This document shows positions 1 to 54,044 of a DNA stretch of 64,000 nt, in pieces (the stretch's first letter is position 1; the number at the start of each line of letters is the position of its first letter). Where the stretch lies: assembly GCA_001661245.1 (NCBI GenBank), contig KV454011.1:348108-412107 (forward strand), read 5' to 3'. The translations under genes and the position numbers were made by a program. The notes under the pieces were generated by a model. That model did no database searches. It saw only the letters and a program-made list of their open reading frames with translations, and was not told the origin of the DNA. This DNA is from Pachysolen tannophilus NRRL Y-2460 (taxonomy: Eukaryota).

Positions 1-164
1 TTTTTACCCGATTTGGTAGCAATGACTAACTAACAAAAGTTTGTTGTGATCATATTGGAAAACTTTTCATTATAATGAGTGTTCTTACTAATATAATACT
101 GATTGATTGATAAACTTAATTCTTTGGAATATTAAAGAGAGTGTATTATTGTTGTTGTTTCGAT

Positions 165-1244
165 ATGGTTAAGAAGGCTGGTGTTTTAGGTGCAACAGGT
201 TCTGTTGGTCAGCGTTTTATCTTATTATTGTCGGAGCACCCAGATTTTGAATTATCGGTATTAGGTGCATCATCTAGATCTTGTGGTAAGAAATATAAAG
301 ATGCAGTTACTTGGAAGCAAACTTCATTATTACCTGATGCAGCTGGTGAGATTGTAGTTCATGAGTGTGAGTATGAGAAATTTAAAGATTGTGATATTGT
401 CTTTTCAGGTCTTGATGCAGATTTTGCTGGTCCTATTGAAAAACAATTTGTTGAAAATGGATTAGTTGTTGTTTCCAATGCTAAAAATTATAGAAGAGAA
501 ACAGATGTACCATTGATTGTTCCTATAGTTAATGTTGAACATTTAGCAGTTATTGATGAAAAAATCAAATTATCTGAAAAAAATGGAATTAAAAAACCAG
601 GTTTTATAGTATGTATTTCAAATTGTTCTACTGCTGGGTTAGTGGCACCTTTGAAACCTTTGATTGATTCATTTGGTCCATTAGATTTGATTACAACAAC
701 AACACTTCAAGCTATTTCAGGTGCAGGATTTAGTCCAGGTGTTCCTGGAATTGATATCTTGGATAATATAGTACCTTATATTTCAGGAGAAGAAGAAAAA
801 ATTGAATGGGAAACAAAAAAAATTCTTGGAAATTTCCAAGGTCAAGAATTTAAACCAGATTTCAATATAAAAGTTAGTGCTCAATGTAATAGAGTAGCTG
901 TTTCAGATGGTCATACAGAATGTATTTCTTTTAAATTTGCAAATAGACCTGCTCCTTCTTTAGAACAAGTTAAACAATGTTTGAAAAATTATGTTTGTGA
1001 TGCATATAAATTAGGTTGTCATTCTGCTCCAAAACAAACCATCCATGTCTTGGAACAAAATGATAGACCACAACCAAGATTAGATAGAGAAAGAGATAAT
1101 GGGTATGGTGTAAGTGTTGGAAGAATTAGAGAAGATCCTATATTGGATTTCAAAATGGTTGTATTATCTCATAATACAGTTATTGGAGCTGCCGGTGCTG
1201 GTATTTTGATTGGAGAAATCTTGATTAAAAAGAACTTGATCTAA
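165..1244 (+). CDS. HOM2: Aspartate-semialdehyde dehydrogenase
   Basis: GVLGATGSVGQRF NAD-binding motif, catalytic SNCSTAG, QAISGAG, SHNTVIGAAG. First ATG is at 165; the ORF track starts at an upstream GTG. Confidence 0.97.
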   Translation: MVKKAGVLGATGSVGQRFILLLSEHPDFELSVLGASSRSCGKKYKDAVTWKQTSLLPDAAGEIVVHECEYEKFKDCDIVFSGLDADFAGPIEKQFVENGLVVVSNAKNYRRETDVPLIVPIVNVEHLAVIDEKIKLSEKNGIKKPGFIVCISNCSTAGLVAPLKPLIDSFGPLDLITTTTLQAISGAGFSPGVPGIDILDNIVPYISGEEEKIEWETKKILGNFQGQEFKPDFNIKVSAQCNRVAVSDGHTECISFKFANRPAPSLEQVKQCLKNYVCDAYKLGCHSAPKQTIHVLEQNDRPQPRLDRERDNGYGVSVGRIREDPILDFKMVVLSHNTVIGAAGAGILIGEILIKKNLI

Positions 1245-1484
1245 AAAAATAGTTATATATCTATATATCTATATATCTATATACATATATATATCTTAGT
1301 TAGTACGTTATCGCAATTATGTATTTCTTATCGTTATTTATTTATGTAGTTGTAAAAAGGTCAAAAAAAAAAAAAAGATTTGAAATGAGATGAGATTTAA
1401 TTTAAAAAGAAAAAACATAGCCATTTGTAAGATATATAATTCAATTTAAAAATAATTTTTTTTTTAATAAGAGGAAGGCGGAAG

Positions 1485-3002
1485 ATGATACCATCGGACA
1501 ATTTGGATAAGATATCGTTCAAGACAAAGACCATTAGTTGGAATGGAAATAATTCGGTGAATAATATATTACTTCAAAATGAAAACGGACCATGTTTCTT
1601 GATATCATTAGTAAATTCATTAATTTTATCTAGAGAATTAAAATCTTATGATTCTAATGGATTCCCAGCTTTAAATTCAAGTAATGAAGATGATGAATTG
1701 GTTCCATTAAAATCATTACTCACAGCTAAAAATGTGAAACTTGTTGATTTATTGAATGAACTTTCATTATTATTACTACAATTAAATAATGATGATGGCG
1801 GTAATGAAATCTTGGATATATCTTCCATATTAAATCGATTGCAATATCTTCATACTGGAATTAATATAAATCCATCAGTGAATGATCCAATTGTTAATCT
1901 TGCCAATGATGAAGTATTGAAAATATGCAACCATCTTGGGTTAAAAGTTATACATGGATGGTTAATCGATCAAGATAATAATGCTAATGAAGATGATATC
2001 TTAAAGAAATTAGATAATTATGAAAATATTCAAAATTATTTATTAACCAGAATTGATGAAATGAGTGAATTACTGAATAAATATTTTTTTTTACAAAAAT
2101 TAGATATGAATAGATTTAGTACTGATTTAAATTATATTTTTGAAATTATTGATGAATTTGAAAAAGAACAACAAAATAATAATCAAGATAATAATATTTC
2201 AACAATAATTGAAAATTTACAAAATTATTACAAAATTAAATCTTTTCTTTTAGATAATCCAACTCAATTGACAAATTATGGATTAAATAAACTTTCTGAA
2301 AAAACTTTAGAAATTGATTCTATTTCAATTTTTTTCAGAAATGATCATTTCAATACTATTTATAGGCACCCTAAGATCAATGACCCTTCAAATAATGATC
2401 TATTTCTCTTGTTGATAGATGAAGGTTATAATAATGATGAAATGGTTTGGGAATGTTTGAAAACTATTAATGGTGATGAAAATTATCTTTGTGATGGGAA
2501 TTTCAAAATTGTAGGTAACGTCAATAAAGATAAAAAAAATAATAATCTGGTAGATGTTGATCCTTCTAACTCATCAAATAATACAGGAGGAGAATTTATT
2601 GAGGGGAAAATTGTCAGTGATGAAACTGACAAAATTGACTATAATGATTACCTGCTAGATTCTGATGATGAAAAATTAGGAGGCTTAACAAATGATGAAA
2701 GAATTGCTAGAAATTTACAAAAAGAAGAAGATGAAAATTATGCAAGAGGCCTACAAAATAGGTTTAATGATGAACTGACTGCTAATTTCTTGAAAAGTCA
2801 AAAGAAGAACAAAGATAATAAGAAAAAAATTACCAATACTACAAAAAATGAAAAGAATAGTAGACCTGGATCAGCTACTGCAAATAAGAGACAAAATATG
2901 GGAAGTTTCACTGGTGAAACCACTTCCAGTATTAACACTAAAGCTACAAATGCAGACACGAAGAATAAGAACAAGTCAAAGGAAGGTTGTGTTATTGTTT
3001 AA
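1485..3002 (+). CDS. MIY1: MINDY-family (K48-specific) deubiquitinase, Miy1-like
   Basis: QNENGPCFL (catalytic Cys), HGWL, FFRNDHFNT (catalytic His), MIU-like DERIARNLQKEED, C-terminal CaaX CVIV. Confidence 0.88.
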   Translation: MIPSDNLDKISFKTKTISWNGNNSVNNILLQNENGPCFLISLVNSLILSRELKSYDSNGFPALNSSNEDDELVPLKSLLTAKNVKLVDLLNELSLLLLQLNNDDGGNEILDISSILNRLQYLHTGININPSVNDPIVNLANDEVLKICNHLGLKVIHGWLIDQDNNANEDDILKKLDNYENIQNYLLTRIDEMSELLNKYFFLQKLDMNRFSTDLNYIFEIIDEFEKEQQNNNQDNNISTIIENLQNYYKIKSFLLDNPTQLTNYGLNKLSEKTLEIDSISIFFRNDHFNTIYRHPKINDPSNNDLFLLLIDEGYNNDEMVWECLKTINGDENYLCDGNFKIVGNVNKDKKNNNLVDVDPSNSSNNTGGEFIEGKIVSDETDKIDYNDYLLDSDDEKLGGLTNDERIARNLQKEEDENYARGLQNRFNDELTANFLKSQKKNKDNKKKITNTTKNEKNSRPGSATANKRQNMGSFTGETTSSINTKATNADTKNKNKSKEGCVIV

Positions 3003-3503
3003 ATGGGTACGGATTGGGGAGTTTTCTTTTTTTTTTTTTTTTAATTTCTATTTTTTTACTTACTACTACTTACTTACTTATCTTTTATGTTTTATGTGAT
3101 GACTTTTTTTTTTTTTTTTTTTTGTCTTTTTCTGAGAGCGAGAAATACATTATATACACCTTTTTTATTTTATTTTTTTTTTTATTTTCTTCTTAAAAAA
3201 CTATACATCTTTTTTAGATACAATAATCTGAGTTCTCTATATCAAAAAATATGATAATTATAATATATAATCAATTAAGTCAATTAAAGAATCAATTGAT
3301 AACGATAAAATCTAATATGAAAAACTAGTGGTAGTGTATTATATATCAATTTGACAAAAGAGGAAATAGTTTAAATGCTGCAAATTTGTACATTTTTAGA
3401 AAATATATTTATATATATATAAGAAAAGAAGAGTTTATTCACACATAGCCAGTAATTGAGTAATTAATTAAATAAATATCTTAAGGTGTGATTTAATTTG
3501 TAA

Positions 3504-4490
3504 ATGGCATCAGGTGAGTTATTGTTTAGAGAATCTTCGTTGAGGCTGCTGGATGATGAAACGCGGGAAGGGTTATTGAATGGTAATAATGGTATTACAG
3601 CATCGACATCATCATGTTCAGTTATTACTGCGACAGCGGTAAATGGCGGTTCAAATTCTGAGTTGAATAATAGAGAAGAAAATATTTCTAAGAAAAAATT
3701 ATTTACTTGGGATGAAATTCCTGAATGGCAAAGAGATAATCATTATATTAGAAAAGGATATGTTAGAGAAACTTTATCATTTGAGCTATGCTTAGATTCA
3801 TTAAGTTATTTCCATAATGAATCAGTTAATATTTATACACATTTAATACCTGGATTTTCAGTTTTATTATCATTAGGATTTTTTTTAATACTGGGGAAAC
3901 ATTTTATACCAGCATATCTGTCTACAACTTTTTTAGATTATTTTTTTATTGATTTATTTTTATTTGGATTAAGTTGTTGTCTTTCACTTAGTGCTGGGTT
4001 TCATTGTTTTAAATGTCATTCTGATCCTATATTAAGACTTGGAAACAAATTTGATTATTTAGGCATAGTAACATTGATTGTTACATCAATGGTTGGGATC
4101 ATATATTATTCTTATATTGATCATCCACTGATTCTGTATTTTTTCGCTAGTATCACTTTTATATTGGGATTTATATGTTCTATAATAAGTATAAAAGAAA
4201 AATTTAGTCATCCAGATTTTAGAGCTATTAGAGCATTTATGTTTATAATATTTGGACTTTCTGGTGTTTTCCCAGTACTTTATGGAATTCATACATTTGG
4301 ATGGGATGAATCAGTTAAGAGATCAAGTTTAAACTATTTAATAATGGAAGGAGCACTTTATATTACTGGTGCTTTGTTATATGCATTTAGAATTCCAGAA
4401 AAATTTAATCCAGGAAAATATGATTTCATTGGTCACTCACATCAAATATTTCATTTGTTTGTTATTTCTGCTCTGTATTGTCATTGGTAA
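3504..4490 (+). CDS. IZH2: PAQR/haemolysin-III family membrane protein (IZH1/IZH2-like); C-terminus truncated in this sequence by an inversion
   Basis: PEWQRDNHYIRKGY, HNESVNIYTH, KFDYLGI, RIPEKFNPGKYDFIGHSHQIFH. Stops one residue after the last conserved His; the missing tail is on the - strand at 4630-4677. Paralogue identity is uncertain. Confidence 0.88.
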   Translation: MASGELLFRESSLRLLDDETREGLLNGNNGITASTSSCSVITATAVNGGSNSELNNREENISKKKLFTWDEIPEWQRDNHYIRKGYVRETLSFELCLDSLSYFHNESVNIYTHLIPGFSVLLSLGFFLILGKHFIPAYLSTTFLDYFFIDLFLFGLSCCLSLSAGFHCFKCHSDPILRLGNKFDYLGIVTLIVTSMVGIIYYSYIDHPLILYFFASITFILGFICSIISIKEKFSHPDFRAIRAFMFIIFGLSGVFPVLYGIHTFGWDESVKRSSLNYLIMEGALYITGALLYAFRIPEKFNPGKYDFIGHSHQIFHLFVISALYCHW

Positions 4491-4536
4491 TAAAAACGAG
4501 GAAAAACTATTCGTTTGTGGTGGAGCCATATTTTAA
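4488..4536 (+). other. Displaced MON1 C-terminal coding segment, (C)NKNEEKLFVCGGAIF*
   Basis: t aat aaa aac gag gaa aaa cta ttc gtt tgt ggt gga gcc ata ttt taa resembles the fungal Mon1 ending (W..E.RLF..GGA.F*) but lies on the strand opposite MON1. Confidence 0.85.
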
Positions 4537-4629
4537 TAAACTAATTAAATTAAATTGTATAATAATTTTTTTTTTTTTATTTTATAAATTCATATAATCA
4601 AATCAATATAATTATATTTAAAATTGTGA

Positions 4630-4677
4630 TCAAACCAACTTTTCATGACAATATTTATAAGAACGAATTAACAGTTC
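4630..4677 (-). other. Displaced IZH C-terminal coding segment, E(A)LIRSYKYCHEKLV*
   Basis: The - strand reads gaa ctg tta att cgt tct tat aaa tat tgt cat gaa aag ttg gtt tga, resembling the tail of yeast Izh proteins after the final His (H..LL.SY...H). Confidence 0.8.
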
Positions 4678-6617
4678 CACCAATTAATAATTTTTTTGCA
4701 ACTCTTCATCAACAAATTCTTGTCCAAGAGACCATCATTCGTCAATAAATATAACTCATAATTTTTCGTTATTATCACAATACCTAATATTTCTTTATTG
4801 TTCGAATTTTTAAGCTTAACATATGAAATAAAATTACTTGTTTGACTATTCGAATTATAATGATTTAAAACAATAGTATGAAGTTTCTTGTAAATATACA
4901 TTATTTTGGAATATTTTTCATCTTCTTTCCCCCTCAAAATCAAGTTTCCAGAACAATTATCAATTTCTGGGAACACATATTGAATATGTTTCTTAGATTT
5001 GTAAATAAAATGACGAATTAATGGAGTAGGAATATCAACATTAATCAAGATTCCTGCTCTTGGAGAAAATAAAGATTTAACCATTTCTTTGTAAATGTTG
5101 TTTGTACCCATTATCATTGAATTAATGACATTATTACTCATTTCTCTCATTTCAAAAAATGAATTTCTATCGGCAGATATCAATATTAAAGCTATTTTAT
5201 TCTTATCTATTATGTAGTCATCAATTTCTTCATGATTGTAATCGTTGAATGTCTCAAATTTTGATAAATCAATAAACTTGATAAAACAATATAAAAATCC
5301 ATTGAGGTTAAAATTTGGTAAACAAATAGGAACCCAAAATTCTTCTTCACTGTATGAGTTATCATTTGAAGTTTTAAAAGTGTTTGTATTAAATACCATC
5401 TCAAATAATAACTGCAAATCAGAAGTATGTAACGAATGGCGCCTCGGTCTAAGGATACTTATCAATCTTCCTTTTGGAGCCACTATCAACCCATATAATA
5501 AATTAGGAGTCCTATTTGATAATAGTAGTTGATCCAATTTCAATCTTATAGATTTTTTTAATTTTAAACATTGTAAACCACCAATGATCAATCCCGGATT
5601 CAACCCATTACAAAGATCATTGCAAATTGAGTCTAATACAGAAAGATCAGATCGACCTAACAATTTCCTTAAATCAAAATTTTCTCTTTTAGTGAAAACT
5701 TTTAAAATATGAGGTCTTGATAATGTAGATAATAAGAAATTATATAAAAATTGTAATTGTTGTAATAATTGTAAATCACTTTCTGATTCAGTGGTAGATG
5801 ATGATGAAGAAACAGCCATTAAAATTATTGGCGACTGGTTTAAGAAAGTAAACCTCGTGTTGCTGGATGTAGTAAATGATTTCAAGTTATCGTCATTATG
5901 TTCATTGAAATAAGATATTATTGTTTGTATAATTCCCATATACCCTGTTATAACCTCATCTGAACCATGCATTGAGTATATTGGTTTCCCAGCAGAAGAC
6001 AAAATGAAGAAATGTTTCTTGTGCTTATAAAAATCATCAATATCGTTATTATTATCGGAATATTCTCTGGTGATGTTGAAATCAAATTCATCCAATATAT
6101 CATTCCCGGCTGGGCGTGTGCTTATATTACTTGAATATATGGATTCTCCCAACATACTCTTATTATCATTTATCAATTCTTCCAACAATTGCTCTACCCC
6201 ATCACCATTTTCATCTGCTTCTTCTTCTGTTCCAAGACCATCTCTCAATATATGATCACTGTGGTTTCTGAAAACTTTAATAGTTGGTGTACTGCTTTTT
6301 CCTGTAGAATTTGAAATAAAGCTTTCTAATTGCCCATCTCCATCCAGCTCAATATTGTCCAAGTTACCATCAAACACACTAACTGAATCAGCATTCAAAG
6401 ACATGGTCGGCTTAGCTCTTAAAATCGAGCTCGGGTTATACAATAATGACTTGTTTGGGAATAATGATATTGAAGACTTTGTATTGCTTAACAGTGGCCT
6501 GGTCAAAAGCGATGTTTGATTACCATCGTCGTCATCATCATAATAAGACGGCTTGAAATAATCATCATTCACCTCAACCAGGTTATTATTATTGATATTG
6601 CGGTTGTTCTGATCCAT
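4668..6617 (-). CDS. MON1: Mon1, subunit of the Mon1-Ccz1 Ypt7/Rab7 GEF; C-terminus truncated in this sequence by an inversion
   Basis: KKHFFILSSAGKPIYSMHG, NFDLRKLL, RPRRHSLHTSDLQLLF, EFWVPICLPNFN, RHFIYKSK. Ends abnormally as INWWNC*. Confidence 0.95.
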   Translation of the reverse strand: MDQNNRNINNNNLVEVNDDYFKPSYYDDDDDGNQTSLLTRPLLSNTKSSISLFPNKSLLYNPSSILRAKPTMSLNADSVSVFDGNLDNIELDGDGQLESFISNSTGKSSTPTIKVFRNHSDHILRDGLGTEEEADENGDGVEQLLEELINDNKSMLGESIYSSNISTRPAGNDILDEFDFNITREYSDNNNDIDDFYKHKKHFFILSSAGKPIYSMHGSDEVITGYMGIIQTIISYFNEHNDDNLKSFTTSSNTRFTFLNQSPIILMAVSSSSSTTESESDLQLLQQLQFLYNFLLSTLSRPHILKVFTKRENFDLRKLLGRSDLSVLDSICNDLCNGLNPGLIIGGLQCLKLKKSIRLKLDQLLLSNRTPNLLYGLIVAPKGRLISILRPRRHSLHTSDLQLLFEMVFNTNTFKTSNDNSYSEEEFWVPICLPNFNLNGFLYCFIKFIDLSKFETFNDYNHEEIDDYIIDKNKIALILISADRNSFFEMREMSNNVINSMIMGTNNIYKEMVKSLFSPRAGILINVDIPTPLIRHFIYKSKKHIQYVFPEIDNCSGNLILRGKEDEKYSKIMYIYKKLHTIVLNHYNSNSQTSNFISYVKLKNSNNKEILGIVIITKNYELYLLTNDGLLDKNLLMKSCKKIINWWNC

Positions 6618-6763: not shown

Positions 6764-8785
6764 ATGGAAATTCAAGAGAGGAAACCAACGGCAAATTCTA
6801 TCAAGTTTGCCCATACCAGGACTCCTTCAACTTCATCCAATAATAATATAGATATCACTAATATTCAACCTCCGCCAGCTAGAAGATCATCTGTTTCGAA
6901 CTATGGTAGATCTTCAATAGATTCAATAAGGTCGAATTCTTCTGTGAATTCGTCAACTTCTTCCCTTGTGGTGGATGATCAAAAGAATAATGGGATTGGG
7001 AATAGTAATAACAATGATAGCAAATCATTTATGTTCAGGAACAAGAATAATTCATCGAATAACATGTTACCTTTAACTAAGACAGTTTCATTTAGCAGTA
7101 TATTAACAAATGATAATGCTAGTAATAACACTGGGAGCTCTGCTACTGGTAATGCCAATGTCAGAACTGCAAAGTCTGCAAATAGACTCAGTCGACTTTT
7201 TAATTCAAATCAGTTTATAAGAAGGAAAAAAAGTATAGATGATGTGAGTGGGAAACGTAATAAGGTGTATCAGAACGCTGATGACTCGTCGAGTGATTCC
7301 TTATCAAGCTCAATAGTATTATCTCCCAAAATCAAGCCAGTAGGTTCTTCAAATGAATCACTGGTAGGCTATAGAACTGCAAATCATGATAGTAGTGGTA
7401 GTCTTGGAGGTGGAGCCGGTGGTTCGTTATTGGAAAGAGAATTATCTAGGCTGAAATCGGTAAAGGATAAAAAAAGAGTTAAAAAACCTGTTGATCTTTC
7501 AATTCAGACATCAAATTTGATACCTAATAGCTCCAATACTGGTGTCAAGAGAATAATATCACCATTGGGAAGTAAAGCTCCAAGAGGAGAATTGGGTGAG
7601 AATTCAAACGACTCAACAGAATTATCAAGACAACACAAGTATCATCCTTTGAACCATTTGCATATAAACCATCATAATTTATTAGTAAAGTCAAGATTAC
7701 AGAAAGATTATAATCCTCTTTCATCATCTTCTTCGAATTCTAAATTGGTTTCCGATAGTGGACAAACATTGTATTCTTTTTCAACTACAAATAATAACAT
7801 TAACGGTGTTAGTAACACAACTGGAAGTGGTAATAAAGATGGAAGTACTGGAAACAATAATTCAGGAGGAATAGTCACGTCTACAGACTTGCAGAGAACC
7901 TTGATGCAATTGGAGAATTTAAATCTAAATAATTTGAAATATGTTGAAGACAAGGAAAATATTGCAGATGATTCTTGGAATCTTTTAACTTCATTGATTA
8001 TGCCCTTATTTAAATGTGATAATCTCAAGGTACCCATTGAAGATTTAAACAAGTTGTGTTATTTATACATTTTTTTAAGATTTCAAGAATTTTCAGATAG
8101 AAATGAAGCTCTTAGTTCAGTGAATTCCATCTCAAATGGTAATACAACACCATTGTCGAAAACAACAGTTTTTGATGAAGTTCAAGAGCTATTTAAAAAT
8201 GGTTTTAGCATATACCTTAACAATGTTTATCTGGTTGAAACCAGAGGTTCTTCAACTTCGCTCAAGTCATTATATTCTAGTTTATCACTATCGCAACTTT
8301 TAAAAAGAAAACCATTCCAATCCAAGTTGTCCTTATTATGGGATTATTTCTTGACACATATCTTGTATTATTTAGAAGCCATTTTTTTACCATTACAACA
8401 AGAAATTGATGGTGTTGGACCGATCTTAAGCCCATATAGTAAGCACAAAAAATTTTGGTTTGATTATTTGAAAATCGATAATTTGAAAACTGTCAGTAAA
8501 ATATATGAAATTAAATTATTACTGTTGTTAAATTTTAGAGATAAAGTGGTGATACCCTTATATGAGACAGAATATTTCAATAATCTCACCGAACAGTTTA
8601 TAATTGAAGAAGAAGATGAAGGAGATAACACCGAGGTGAAAATTGAAGATGAGAAGCATATAGAGGAATATTTACCTATTAAATTAAAGCTCATTCAATG
8701 CTTGAGCACATTAAAACGAATAGATTCAAGCGATACAAAACAGTACATCATAGAAAAGCTACTAAGAGAGACAATCAACAGTTGA
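6764..8785 (+). CDS. BIT61: TORC2 subunit Bit61/Bit2 (HbrB domain)
   Basis: Ser/Asn-rich N-terminus, then ADDSWNLL..IMPLF..LKVPIEDLNKL and LWDYF...ILYYLEAIFLPLQ (HbrB-like domain). Confidence 0.85.
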   Translation: MEIQERKPTANSIKFAHTRTPSTSSNNNIDITNIQPPPARRSSVSNYGRSSIDSIRSNSSVNSSTSSLVVDDQKNNGIGNSNNNDSKSFMFRNKNNSSNNMLPLTKTVSFSSILTNDNASNNTGSSATGNANVRTAKSANRLSRLFNSNQFIRRKKSIDDVSGKRNKVYQNADDSSSDSLSSSIVLSPKIKPVGSSNESLVGYRTANHDSSGSLGGGAGGSLLERELSRLKSVKDKKRVKKPVDLSIQTSNLIPNSSNTGVKRIISPLGSKAPRGELGENSNDSTELSRQHKYHPLNHLHINHHNLLVKSRLQKDYNPLSSSSSNSKLVSDSGQTLYSFSTTNNNINGVSNTTGSGNKDGSTGNNNSGGIVTSTDLQRTLMQLENLNLNNLKYVEDKENIADDSWNLLTSLIMPLFKCDNLKVPIEDLNKLCYLYIFLRFQEFSDRNEALSSVNSISNGNTTPLSKTTVFDEVQELFKNGFSIYLNNVYLVETRGSSTSLKSLYSSLSLSQLLKRKPFQSKLSLLWDYFLTHILYYLEAIFLPLQQEIDGVGPILSPYSKHKKFWFDYLKIDNLKTVSKIYEIKLLLLLNFRDKVVIPLYETEYFNNLTEQFIIEEEDEGDNTEVKIEDEKHIEEYLPIKLKLIQCLSTLKRIDSSDTKQYIIEKLLRETINS

Positions 8786-51266: not shown

Positions 51267-54044
51267 TTATGAATCACTACCGGTATATTCACTTGAAGAT
51301 AAAACTTCATAATCTTCTTCTTCCAAGATATCTTCATTAGGAAGATCATCTTCGCTTTCAGAAACATCAACTTCTGTCATGCTACTACATTCTTCTTCTT
51401 TCTTGAATTCGCTATCATCAAAGTCCTCCATTTTATTTTCAGTTAGACTCAGGCCAACATCTACAAATTCAGGTTCAGTCGATAATTTGTTAGCAATATC
51501 ATCATTACTAGCAGTTTCTGATGCTGAGATAAAATCTGTAGAGACACTACTAGAGACATCCTCTTTATGATCAACTAAATGGGGTTCCTTTACTAACGAA
51601 GCCGTTGATCCACTGGTAGAAGATTCACGTGGCAATTTAGGCAAGACCATGGTTGAACTTAGTGATGATGAGAGACTTGATGGAGGAGTTGTCGTGGTGC
51701 CAGCACTTACGGCAACTGAATTTGATATTAAATCATCTCGATCTGCCTCTTGTATCTCATCAGTTGTTTCTTTTCTTTGATTAAAAGCAAATCCAAATTT
51801 TCTTAAAATATCTTCAGATTTGTTATAAGTTTCTTCAAAATTATCGCATAATTTTAATTTGAAATTAACTGATCCAGTGTCTTCCTTAAATGAGAAACTG
51901 TCATAAAATATTTTTTCTGATGTATTCAAAAAATTAACTTCAAGAATTTTTAATAATCTATCGTCAAGATTTGATGATTTGAAATAATCATTTAAATTAA
52001 CAGAAATATCTTTATTCTTCAAAGATTCCAAAGGATGTGAACCAATATTGACATTAATAACCCTACCATTAGAAAATGTTAATAAAAGTGTTGAATTTGA
52101 AGGGATAACATCTTTGGTGTTGTTGAAAAAAGTTAATCTAATCAAATTATCTCTTCTATCCAATTTTTTCAAATAAACATAGCCATCAGTGGTATCTTCT
52201 GCTTCAGATTCTAATTGATCATCAACATCGCTTGTATGACCTTCATCTTGTTGTATTTCTTCAACAACTTTATTTTCTGGTTTTTCCAAGTTGGATTCTA
52301 AATCTAAAACATTATTTTCCTTTGCAATAGGATCAGAAACAGGAGTGTTTGTACTTTCAACTGGGCCATCAAAATTGATTCCATAATTCATAACATAAAA
52401 TTTGTAAATATCCATAATCTCCTCATCTACAAAAGATTCTTTAATTTTTTTCTTGAAAAATTCAATCAATTCATCGTATTTTTCAGCTTTAAATTTCAAA
52501 TCCATGATTGAGTTACCACCTAATTGCGAACCAAATAGTTTATCCAACATTTCAGTTGATAAATTCTCCAAGGTTATAAACATATCAGATTGTGGAATAC
52601 CATGTTTAGAAATAAACTTATCAATATCTTCCAACGAAGTAGTGTTGGTCTTGAAACTATTCTTGCATAATAAATTCTTTGTCTCTTTTGATAAAGGTTC
52701 TTGAATTTTCAATAATGGATGGCTTGAGTCATGGTTTAAACTTCCACGTTTATTTTGCTCACAATTTTCACACAAGTCATAGTCATCACAGATTGCACAC
52801 TTATACCTAATACCACGAATTGGACTTGGGTTGGATCCCAATTGACAAACATCACAAAAGACACCATGATGAATTGGTTTTGGTGGATGAATTGCCTTTA
52901 ATAAATACTTGCAATCTCCCGGATATTCGCAAGCAATGAAATTATGGGTTTTCTTATGAAGACCTTGATCACAATTATTTTTAGATTTGCAATTTTCACA
53001 TAAATCGAAATTTGGACAATCTAAGCACTTGTAACGAGTACCTTTAATAGGACCTGTTTCACAAATATCACAAATGACGTTAAGATGAACAGGTTTATGT
53101 TGTGATTCTGTAGAAACAATCTTATCGATATGGGTATAATGTGGTAACGAAGAAGAAGAGTCTTTTGAAACTGTATGATTATGAGTTTTTTTATCTTTTG
53201 TATTTAATTTTTCAAAAACTTTCCCAGCAATTTCATCACTTAAACGATCAACATTAAGAAATAACTTTACCAATGCATCAGCGTCAAGCTTATTAGTATC
53301 ATCATTATCAGAAGAAGAAACGTTTTCTTCTTTTTTATTGATCTTTGAATTTTGATTAATTGATTCTTGAATATTTAAATTATTAAACTTGATTAATTCT
53401 TCAAATTTACCAATCAAATTGGTAATTTGTTGTCTCTTAGAATCAACAGTTGAAGCAAAAGTAGAAGTAACAGAAACTGGCAATTGATATTGAATTTCAG
53501 CCTCAGTCTCAGCTTTATTTTTAACCTTTTCCTTATCCTTAGCTTTAGCCTTATCCTTAGCTACATCATCATCATCATCATTTCCAGTTAGAACTGTAGT
53601 ATCAATAGAAGAACCAGTAGCGCTTGGAGTTACCGATAAAGTATTAATTTTTGTAATGACAATCTTGATTGAATTTCTAACGCCCAATGATCTTTTCAAA
53701 CATTGATAATCTTTTTGAGTACATAAAGGAACCAACGATTTTTGCTTGTTTGATTTCCTCTCAAGCGAAATCTCATCATCTTGATTTAATTTAAAAGCAT
53801 TCTTTAAAATCCTTTCAAAATCTTCCTTGTTCACAATTTTATCCATTGAATTAATTGCAATTACTTTTCTAATGTTATCGCCATTATTATTATTATAACT
53901 AATATTGTTATTATTATTATTATTGTTGTTGTTGTTGTTACCATTATTATTACCGTTAATTAGAGTTGCTTTAACAATATAGTTATTAGCGTTATTGACT
54001 CTAACGGAGTCACCTTCCAGAGACAACTCAACTAATGAAGACAT
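51267..54044 (-). CDS. Nbr1/Atg19-like selective autophagy receptor (PB1-like, 2 ZZ zinc fingers, Ig-like domain, C-terminal AIM)
   Basis: [26 protein letters not shown] and CDVC...[22 protein letters not shown] fingers; [10 protein letters not shown]; acidic tail EEEDYEVL. Likely ATG at 54044. Confidence 0.8.

What the first reader, a model, noticed from the sequence alone, without database searches (positions are those of the whole stretch)
4488..4677. Precise 190-bp inversion has swapped the C-termini of the convergent IZH and MON1 genes
Seen in sequence: IZH (+) stops abruptly at ...YCHW* and MON1 (-) at ...IINWWNC*. Directly after the IZH junction the + strand reads t-NKNEEKLFVCGGAIF*, and directly after the MON1 junction the - strand reads E(CTG)LIRSYKYCHEKLV*. 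Reverse-complementing 4488-4677 gives IZH ...cat tgg|gaa ctg tta = HWEALIRSYKYCHEKLV* and MON1 ...aat tgg tg|t aat aaa = NWCNKNEEKLFVCGGAIF*. Both are in frame with no base gained or lost (1-bp G microhomology). Established (from memory): fungal Mon1 ends in W..E.RLF..GGA.F and Izh proteins carry an H..LL.SY...H tail. Inference: this is a real micro-inversion that truncates two genes and exchanges their 3'UTRs/terminators (fixed, polymorphic or switchable), or an assembly or sequence-handling artefact. A 6-bp ATTGGT inverted repeat (4483-4488/4679-4684) flanks the segment, but exchange at it is 2 nt out of register and would not restore the frames.
Basis: partly seen in the sequence, partly recalled or inferred. 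Interest (0 to 1): 0.9.

Follow-up and report, generated by a model that had tools for sequence, protein, structure and literature searches.

The report
Flipped 190-bp stretch: an assembly error
A 190-base piece between two yeast genes is written backwards in this reference sequence, which cuts the ends off both genes, but contigs built from public sequencing reads carry it the right way round, so it is an error of the assembly and not biology.

Summary
In the window, a PAQR/IZH gene (+, 3504..4490) and MON1 (-, 6617..4668) both stop early. Each gene's missing conserved tail lies on the opposite strand inside 4488..4677. Re-inverting exactly that segment in a script restores both reading frames, giving 343 aa and 662 aa, and both then align to the last residue with orthologues.

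The biology is not supported. The organism is Pachysolen tannophilus NRRL Y-2460. Contigs built from public reads were laid on the window for 4 of 4 runs: three runs of one sample and one run of a second study. All carry the segment on the strand opposite to the window, with identical flanks. No run shows the window's junctions.

The public IZH protein equals join(3504..4487, 4678..4761) exactly. The annotators therefore skipped precisely this segment as a non-canonical TA..TC "intron". This implies that the deposited assembly itself holds the flip. No P. tannophilus MON1 protein was found in the collection, although both outer neighbours are there.

Verdict: a local orientation error in a reference assembly, with two annotation casualties. 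It is not a real feature and its interest is low. A rare real variant cannot be excluded from contigs alone (about 5%).

The parts
3504..4487 (+). IZH-like PAQR (HlyIII family) coding sequence up to the left breakpoint. As written, it stops at TAA 4488-4490.
   Evidence: ORF. Pfam HlyIII E = 3.5e-54, profile positions 2-224 of 224, ending at residue 328, which is the breakpoint. The public P. tannophilus protein P0121 is 98% identical under table 12. Under table 26 it equals the spliced reading exactly.
4488..4677 (.). The mis-oriented 190-bp segment. It holds both genes' last 15-16 codons, both stop codons and the 93-bp spacer between them. GC content is 0.18.
   Evidence: Contigs of runs X1, X3, X4 and X5 lie on the opposite strand over 4487/8..4677/8 while their flanks are colinear (tables 5 and 8). 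Re-inversion restores both frames.
4488..4536 (+). Displaced MON1 C-terminus, now on the wrong strand: the third base of a Cys codon, then NKNEEKLFVCGGAIF and the stop at 4534-4536.
   Evidence: It aligns with the tails of 6 MON1 orthologues. It has the top PSSM score in the window, 29.1 against a next best of 3.0.
4630..4677 (-). Displaced IZH C-terminus, now on the wrong strand: EALIRSYKYCHEKLV under table 26, at 4677..4633, and the stop at 4632..4630.
   Evidence: It aligns with the tails of 6 IZH orthologues. It is the best of 127,912 six-frame peptides.
4566..4578 (+). Run of 13 T inside the segment. This is the probable place of the one-letter length difference between the window and the read-derived contigs.
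   Evidence: The run is seen. The contig pieces over the segment hold 191 letters against 190 in the window, shown as 'gaps 1' (table 8). The tool skipped 4532-4592 as repeat, so the exact place of the extra letter is not shown.
4678..6617 (-). MON1 coding sequence down to the right breakpoint. As written, it runs 3 codons into the segment and stops at 4668-4670.
   Evidence: ORF. Pfam Fuz_longin_1, 2 and 3 all match, with the third domain matched at profile positions 2-97 of 102, against 2-101 of 102 in orthologue P0001.
4678..4764 (+). False last exon of the public IZH gene model: 27 codons read antisense to MON1, plus a stop.
   Evidence: P0121 (355 aa) equals the table-26 translation of join(3504..4487, 4678..4761) exactly.
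4483..4488 (.). Left arm of the 6-bp inverted repeat ATTGGT. The partner ACCAAT lies at 4679-4684.
   Evidence: The repeat's axis is 2 nt off the inversion axis, so exchange at it does not give the window's junctions.

Best explanation
The 190-bp segment 4488..4677 is mis-oriented in the deposited reference assembly of Pachysolen tannophilus NRRL Y-2460. It is a local inversion error made during assembly or finishing.

In the organism's DNA the segment lies the other way round. IZH and MON1 are then ordinary convergent neighbours with complete, conserved C-termini and a 93-bp spacer between their stop codons.

The annotation pipeline met the error and bridged it. The public IZH model skips exactly the segment as a non-canonical TA..TC 'intron' and runs on for 27 codons antisense to MON1. 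MON1 itself appears to have received no model.

Shown by tool results:
- The orientation conflict between the window and the read-derived contigs.
- The restoration of both frames on re-inversion.
- The exact structure of the public IZH model.

Inferred:
- That the flip is already in the deposit rather than introduced later.
- That the fake intron came from aligning a colinear transcript contig to the flipped assembly.
- That the overlapping false exon displaced the MON1 model.

Which step of the assembly made the error is unknown.
For: 1; on window 4000-5200, contigs of 4 of 4 laid runs place the middle piece on the strand opposite to both flanks. X1, X3 and X4 come from one sample (2010-11), and X5 from another study (2023). 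Joints of kind 'opposite strands' lie at 4486/7/8 and 4677/8/9, with 0 other letters. In X1, X3 and X4 a single 8581-letter contig, at depth 72-181, bridges both junctions. In X5 two contigs give each junction separately.
2; all 5 holding runs hold the same share, 0.91, of the 126 sampled words. By my own arithmetic this roughly fits the loss of only the words that span the two junctions and one homopolymer difference.
3; re-inversion gives an IZH of 343 aa and a MON1 of 662 aa. Both align to the very end with 6 orthologues each.
4; both displaced tails are the best-scoring six-frame peptides in the window.
5; public protein P0121 (PACTADRAFT_63101; accession listed) equals join(3504..4487, 4678..4761) exactly, and the skipped part is the very 190 bases, with ends TA..TC. 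A gene caller would have no reason to skip an in-frame conserved tail if the deposit had the intact orientation.
6., table 8: the window's segment is also one letter shorter than the contigs. So this stretch of the consensus departs from the reads in a second way.
7; there are no long flanking inverted repeats that could support biological flipping.
8. (passages read): inversion misjoins are a recognised class of assembly error in GAGE-B.
Against: All laid data are Logan contigs, not raw reads. Contigs drop rare variants, so they show which form is present and not that the other form is absent (tool text).

Three of the four runs are one sample, and that sample may be the one the assembly came from. 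The fourth run is letter-identical over the stretch, so it may well be the same strain and is not an independent lineage.

I could not read the deposited nucleotide record, so 'the flip is in the deposit' rests on the protein model alone.

A perfectly clean inversion, with no base lost and only 1 base of ambiguity, flanked by only 6 bp of out-of-register repeat, is not what a k-mer graph would be expected to produce. The step that produced it is unexplained. The paper describing the assembly (Riley et al. 2016) was not held.
Confidence: 0.9

Rival explanations
1. A real but rare or polymorphic inversion in the sequenced culture, for example a replication template-switch product or a subclone. 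It happened to be captured in the reference consensus, while the bulk of cells carry the intact form.
For: The inversion is exact and in place, with 1 base of microhomology ('both' = 1). A 6-bp inverted repeat sits at the edges. These features resemble template-switch inversions as I recall them from the literature; I did not read that literature here. Contigs cannot exclude a minor variant (tool text).
Against: 0 of 4 laid runs show the window's junctions. Single contigs at depth 72-181 run straight through in the other orientation. The 6-bp repeat is 2 nt out of register with the junctions. A consensus assembler should not prefer a minority form. The variant would truncate two conserved genes at once.
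Confidence: 0.05
2. The deposited assembly is correct, and the segment was flipped later by sequence handling, so the window differs from the public record.
For: I could not read the public nucleotide record. The flipped segment coincides exactly with an annotated 'intron', which a feature-based processing step could in principle have touched.
Against: With the intact orientation, the IZH frame runs straight on for 15 conserved codons to a stop. No gene caller would then skip them with an intron that is non-canonical in either orientation: TA..TC as written, GA..TA if flipped. The public model is explained only if the annotators saw the flipped form. The one-letter length difference inside the segment is not what a pure flip would give.
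Confidence: 0.04
3. A real, fixed or switchable micro-inversion of the strain that truncates IZH and MON1 and exchanges their 3' ends.
For: The window sequence itself. P. tannophilus is known to flip DNA at its mating-type (MAT) locus (passages of PMC6692504).
Against: Read-derived contigs of 4 of 4 runs from 2 studies carry the intact orientation. The MAT switch uses 2-kb inverted repeats around 8 kb, whereas here there are only 6 bp, out of register. The segment is too short to encode a recombinase. The flipped state destroys conserved tails of two genes.
Confidence: 0.01

Closest known systems
Inversion misjoin or local error in a draft genome assembly, as classified in assembler evaluations such as GAGE-B (PMC3702249, passages read)
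   Same: Pieces of one assembled sequence map to opposite strands of the true sequence at the same place. The error sits in an AT-rich stretch (GC 0.18) with a homopolymer. It also comes with a one-letter length error.
   Different: It is only 190 bp. GAGE-B counts inversions of 1000 bp or more as errors and smaller displacements as 'local errors'. The flip is base-exact, and no long inverted repeat is present that would explain a graph ambiguity.
Flip/flop mating-type inversion of Pachysolen tannophilus: an 8-kb MAT region between 2-kb inverted repeats (PMC6692504, passages read)
   Same: It occurs in the same organism and is an in-place DNA inversion.
   Different: The MAT switch has 2-kb inverted repeats, and both orientations have been observed experimentally. 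Here the repeat is 6 bp and out of register, and only one orientation is seen in the read-derived contigs. This is not a member of that kind.
Template-switch micro-inversions with microhomology at the junctions
   Same: The inversion is exact and in place, with 1-base microhomology and a short inverted repeat nearby.
   Different: There is no evidence that the flipped form exists in any DNA molecule. As I recall, such events are usually much shorter than 190 bp.
Mon1 (Fuz_longin_1/2/3) and PAQR/Izh (HlyIII) proteins of budding yeasts
   Same: Both genes are ordinary members of their families. Their neighbours in related yeasts look the same: the locus tags OGAPHI_002313 and OGAPHI_002314 are consecutive in Ogataea philodendri, and both genes lie on one Kuraishia capsulata contig.
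   Different: As written in the window, both lack their last 15-16 conserved residues. The difference disappears once the segment is turned.

Membership tests
Assembly inversion error (misjoin) | Left, middle and right pieces of the assembled sequence map to alternating strands of sequence derived independently from reads | tested here: met
   table 8. In X1 and X3 the strands are -, +, - over 4000-4487, 4488-4677 and 4678-5200. In X4 and X5 they are +, -, +. This holds in 4 of 4 runs.
Assembly inversion error (misjoin) | The assembled orientation is absent from the reads | tested here: inconclusive
   No contig of 4 runs shows the window's junctions. However, contigs drop rare variants, and raw reads were not available.
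Assembly inversion error (misjoin) | The error is present in the deposited assembly | tested here: inconclusive
   This is inferred from public protein P0121, which equals join(3504..4487, 4678..4761). The nucleotide record itself could not be read.
Programmed or site-specific invertible DNA switch | Flanking inverted repeats at the exchange points | tested here: not met
   There is only a 6-bp repeat, with its axis 2 nt off the inversion axis.
Programmed or site-specific invertible DNA switch | Both orientations are found in DNA of the organism | tested here: not met
   Only one orientation is seen in the contigs of 4 runs from 2 studies. Minor forms are not excluded.
Mon1 (vacuolar fusion protein, Rab7 GEF subunit) | Three longin domains (PF19036, PF19037, PF19038) | tested here: met
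   E-values 8e-34, 4.5e-24 and 9.2e-12.
Mon1 (vacuolar fusion protein, Rab7 GEF subunit) | Conserved C-terminal tail ending ..RLF..GG.VF | tested here: not met
   The tail is absent from the ORF as written. It is present on the opposite strand at 4488-4533, and it is contiguous with the ORF only after re-inversion.
PAQR / Izh (HlyIII, PF03006) | Full-length match to the HlyIII profile | tested here: met
   profile positions 2-224 of 224, E = 3.5e-54. The profile ends at the breakpoint.
PAQR / Izh (HlyIII, PF03006) | Yeast Izh C-terminal tail (..L..SY..H..) beyond the Pfam profile | tested here: not met
   The tail is absent from the ORF as written. It is present on the - strand at 4677..4633 and aligns with 6 orthologues after re-inversion.

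The most novel reading that the evidence does not exclude
The flipped form exists as a real low-frequency variant in the type-strain culture. It would be a clean 190-bp template-switch inversion across the shared 3' ends of two convergent genes, and it was captured by chance in the reference consensus. That would give a natural example of one mutational event truncating two genes and exchanging their terminators.
Probability: 0.05. Interest if true: 0.3.

Novelty: not a real feature. Interest (0 to 1): 0.1.

Why it matters
As biology it does not matter, because the organism almost certainly has two intact, ordinary genes.

As a data-quality matter it has modest practical value. The reference record of the type strain of the yeast that reads CUG as alanine carries a local orientation error. 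That error gives the Izh-like receptor a false 27-residue C-terminus and appears to leave MON1, a conserved vacuole and autophagy factor, unannotated. Comparative studies that rely on the public proteome could therefore score a false loss of MON1.

The case also suggests a cheap screen for similar errors: gene models with non-canonical introns whose skipped segment encodes, on the opposite strand, the expected continuation of the protein.

Tried and rejected
- **RNA evidence.** No RNA holder was listed for the stretch, so nothing can be said about which tail the mRNAs carry.
- **Whole genome.** None is held for this window, so I could not screen the rest of the assembly for similar flips.
- **Earlier notes of this scan.** There are none for this genome or for these words.
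- **Assembly method.** The paper describing the assembly (Riley et al. 2016 PNAS) is not held under either its DOI or its PMC id, so the sequencing platform and assembler are unknown to me. The idea that the homopolymer difference points to a particular platform is my speculation only.
- **The 6-bp inverted repeat as cause.** Rejected, because its axis is 2 nt off the inversion axis.
- **Second-best IZH-tail hit at + 53156-53200** (score 18.6). It lies antisense inside a 925-aa ORF on the - strand, so I treated it as chance.
- **Search for a public P. tannophilus MON1 model.** Three searches all failed. None appeared among 170 hits of 356-1136 aa, where the best identity was 61%. None appeared among 182 hits of 30-355 aa, where the best was 44%. 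The exact look-up of the ORF as written also found nothing. This shows absence from that collection, not from every database.
- **Pfam or other tool scans of the restored proteins.** Not done. The restored proteins are joined sequences, so they were kept inside scripts.

Full report
**What is in the window.** On the + strand an ORF of 328 codons (3504..4490) ends ..YCHW and TAA. On the - strand an ORF of 649 codons (6617..4668) ends ..IINWWNC and TAA. The first ORF is a PAQR/Izh-type receptor: Pfam HlyIII, E = 3.5e-54, profile positions 2-224 of 224, with the match ending exactly at the last residue. The second ORF is Mon1: Fuz_longin_1, 2 and 3 all match, and the third domain is matched at profile positions 2-97 of 102.

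The nearest public protein to the first ORF is PACTADRAFT_63101 of Pachysolen tannophilus NRRL Y-2460 (P0121). Identity is 98% under table 12, and the only mismatches are at CTG codons, which this yeast reads as alanine (table 26). That identifies the organism.

The flanking genes are a MINDY deubiquitinase (1485..2999) and an HbrB-like protein (6764..8782).

Right after the left junction the + strand reads NKNEEKLFVCGGAIF and a stop, ending at 4536. Right after the right junction the - strand reads EALIRSYKYCHEKLV (table 26) and a stop, at 4677..4630. Reverse-complementing 4488..4677 inside a script gives an IZH of 343 aa and a MON1 of 662 aa, with no base gained or lost.

Aligned with six orthologues each, the restored proteins run to the very last conserved column, whereas the ORFs as written stop 15 and 16 columns short (orthologue sequences).

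As a test against chance, I built position-specific score matrices (PSSMs) from the aligned C-terminal ends of 120 MON1 and 119 IZH relatives. I then scored every six-frame peptide of the 64-kb window.
- The displaced MON1 tail scores 29.1, against a next best of 3.0 among 127,906 peptides.
- The displaced IZH tail is the best of 127,912 peptides, at 22.6 against a next best of 18.6.
- That runner-up is a chance hit antisense to a 925-aa ORF.

**The decisive test.** Five public runs hold the stretch 4000-5200, each with 0.91 of the 126 sampled words. Four come from one sample (2010-11) and one from a second study (2023). I laid four of the five on the stretch (X1, X3 and X4 of the first sample, and X5). 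All four are kept as Logan contigs.
- In all 4 of 4 runs, the flanks 4000-4486/7 and 4678/9-5200 lie on one strand of the contig and the middle 4487/8-4677/8 lies on the other.
- Joints of kind 'opposite strands' are reported at exactly the two breakpoints, with one base of ambiguity and zero other letters.
- In X1, X3 and X4 a single 8581-letter contig, at depth 72-181, carries both junctions. In X5 two contigs carry one junction each and break in the low-complexity middle.
- No contig shows the window's junctions.
- The contig pieces over the segment are one letter longer than the window (191 against 190). The extra letter is probably in the 13-T run at 4566-4578, which lies in the part the tool skipped as repeat.

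The uniform share of 0.91 roughly fits the loss of only the words spanning the two junctions and that one length difference. This is my own arithmetic: about 77 of 1171 words expected lost, and about 11 of 126 sampled words observed lost.

**The error appears to be in the deposited assembly, and the annotation was built around it.** The public 355-aa protein P0121 equals, letter for letter, the table-26 translation of join(3504..4487, 4678..4761). The model therefore treats precisely the 190 bases as an intron. The ends of that 'intron' are TA..TC, which is non-canonical in either orientation. The model then reads 27 codons antisense to MON1.

If the deposit had the intact orientation, the frame would run straight on through 15 conserved codons to a stop, and nothing would prompt a caller to skip them.

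The simplest account is my inference and is not shown. A transcript contig that is colinear with the true genome was aligned to the flipped assembly. It matched both flanks and left the middle as a gap, and that gap was taken for an intron.

The collection holds no P. tannophilus MON1 protein:
- None appears among 170 hits of 356-1136 aa, where the best identity is 61%.
- None appears among 182 hits of 30-355 aa, where the best is 44%.
- The exact look-up of the ORF as written finds nothing.

By contrast, the ORFs of both outer neighbours are exact NCBI entries on the same 2,514,465-base contig as P0121. Of three ORFs looked up in that call, two were found. The third, at 51270..54044, was not found as an exact sequence. 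MON1 was therefore probably left without a model, perhaps because the false IZH exon overlaps it (inference).

**How it most likely came about.** This is a local orientation error made in assembly or finishing. I cannot say at which step. The paper describing the assembly was not held. The only flanking inverted repeat is 6 bp and out of register, so a simple repeat-induced graph ambiguity does not explain it. Inversions are a recognised class of misjoin in assembler evaluations (GAGE-B, PMC3702249, passages read).

**Rivals.**
- A rare real variant captured in the consensus cannot be excluded, because contigs drop minor forms (tool text). I give it about 5%.
- A flip introduced after deposit is made unlikely by the structure of the public gene model. 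I give it about 4%.
- A fixed or switchable inversion is contradicted. It also lacks the hallmarks of the one known DNA switch of this yeast, the 8-kb MAT flip/flop between 2-kb inverted repeats (PMC6692504, passages read). I give it about 1%.

**Limits.**
- Three of the four laid runs are one sample, which may be the source of the assembly.
- The fourth run is letter-identical over the stretch, so it may well be the same strain.
- No raw reads and no RNA run were available.
- The deposited nucleotide record and its feature table could not be read.

**Verdict.** This is an artefact of a reference assembly with two annotation casualties: a false C-terminus on the Izh-like protein and, apparently, a missing MON1. 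Interest is low, and the only value is as a correction to a public record.

Noticed in passing
window 4668-6617 (-): No P. tannophilus MON1 protein is in the searched collection at 30-1136 aa, and the ORF as written is not there either. The neighbours on both sides are exact NCBI entries. The public proteome may therefore lack MON1, which could be misread as a gene loss.
   Followed up: partly
window 4566-4578: A run of 13 T lies inside the flipped segment. The read-derived contigs are one letter longer than the window over the segment, probably here. This would be a second small consensus error in the same stretch.
   Followed up: partly
window 51267-54044 (-): A 925-aa ORF rich in Cys/His motifs. 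Its exact table-26 translation is not in the collection, unlike two other ORFs tested in the same call. The public model may use another start or an intron. I did not examine this.
   Followed up: no
window 1485-2999 (+) and 6764-8782 (+): A MINDY-family deubiquitinase and an HbrB-like protein flank the IZH-MON1 pair. Both are identical to public entries on the same contig.
   Followed up: partly
relatives (no window coordinates): IZH and MON1 seem to be neighbours in related yeasts too. In Ogataea philodendri the locus tags OGAPHI_002313 and OGAPHI_002314 are consecutive. In Kuraishia capsulata both proteins lie on one 2,374,218-base contig. The closest unnamed relatives of both proteins share a longest contig of 54,691 bases. 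I did not check gene order and orientation on DNA.
   Followed up: no
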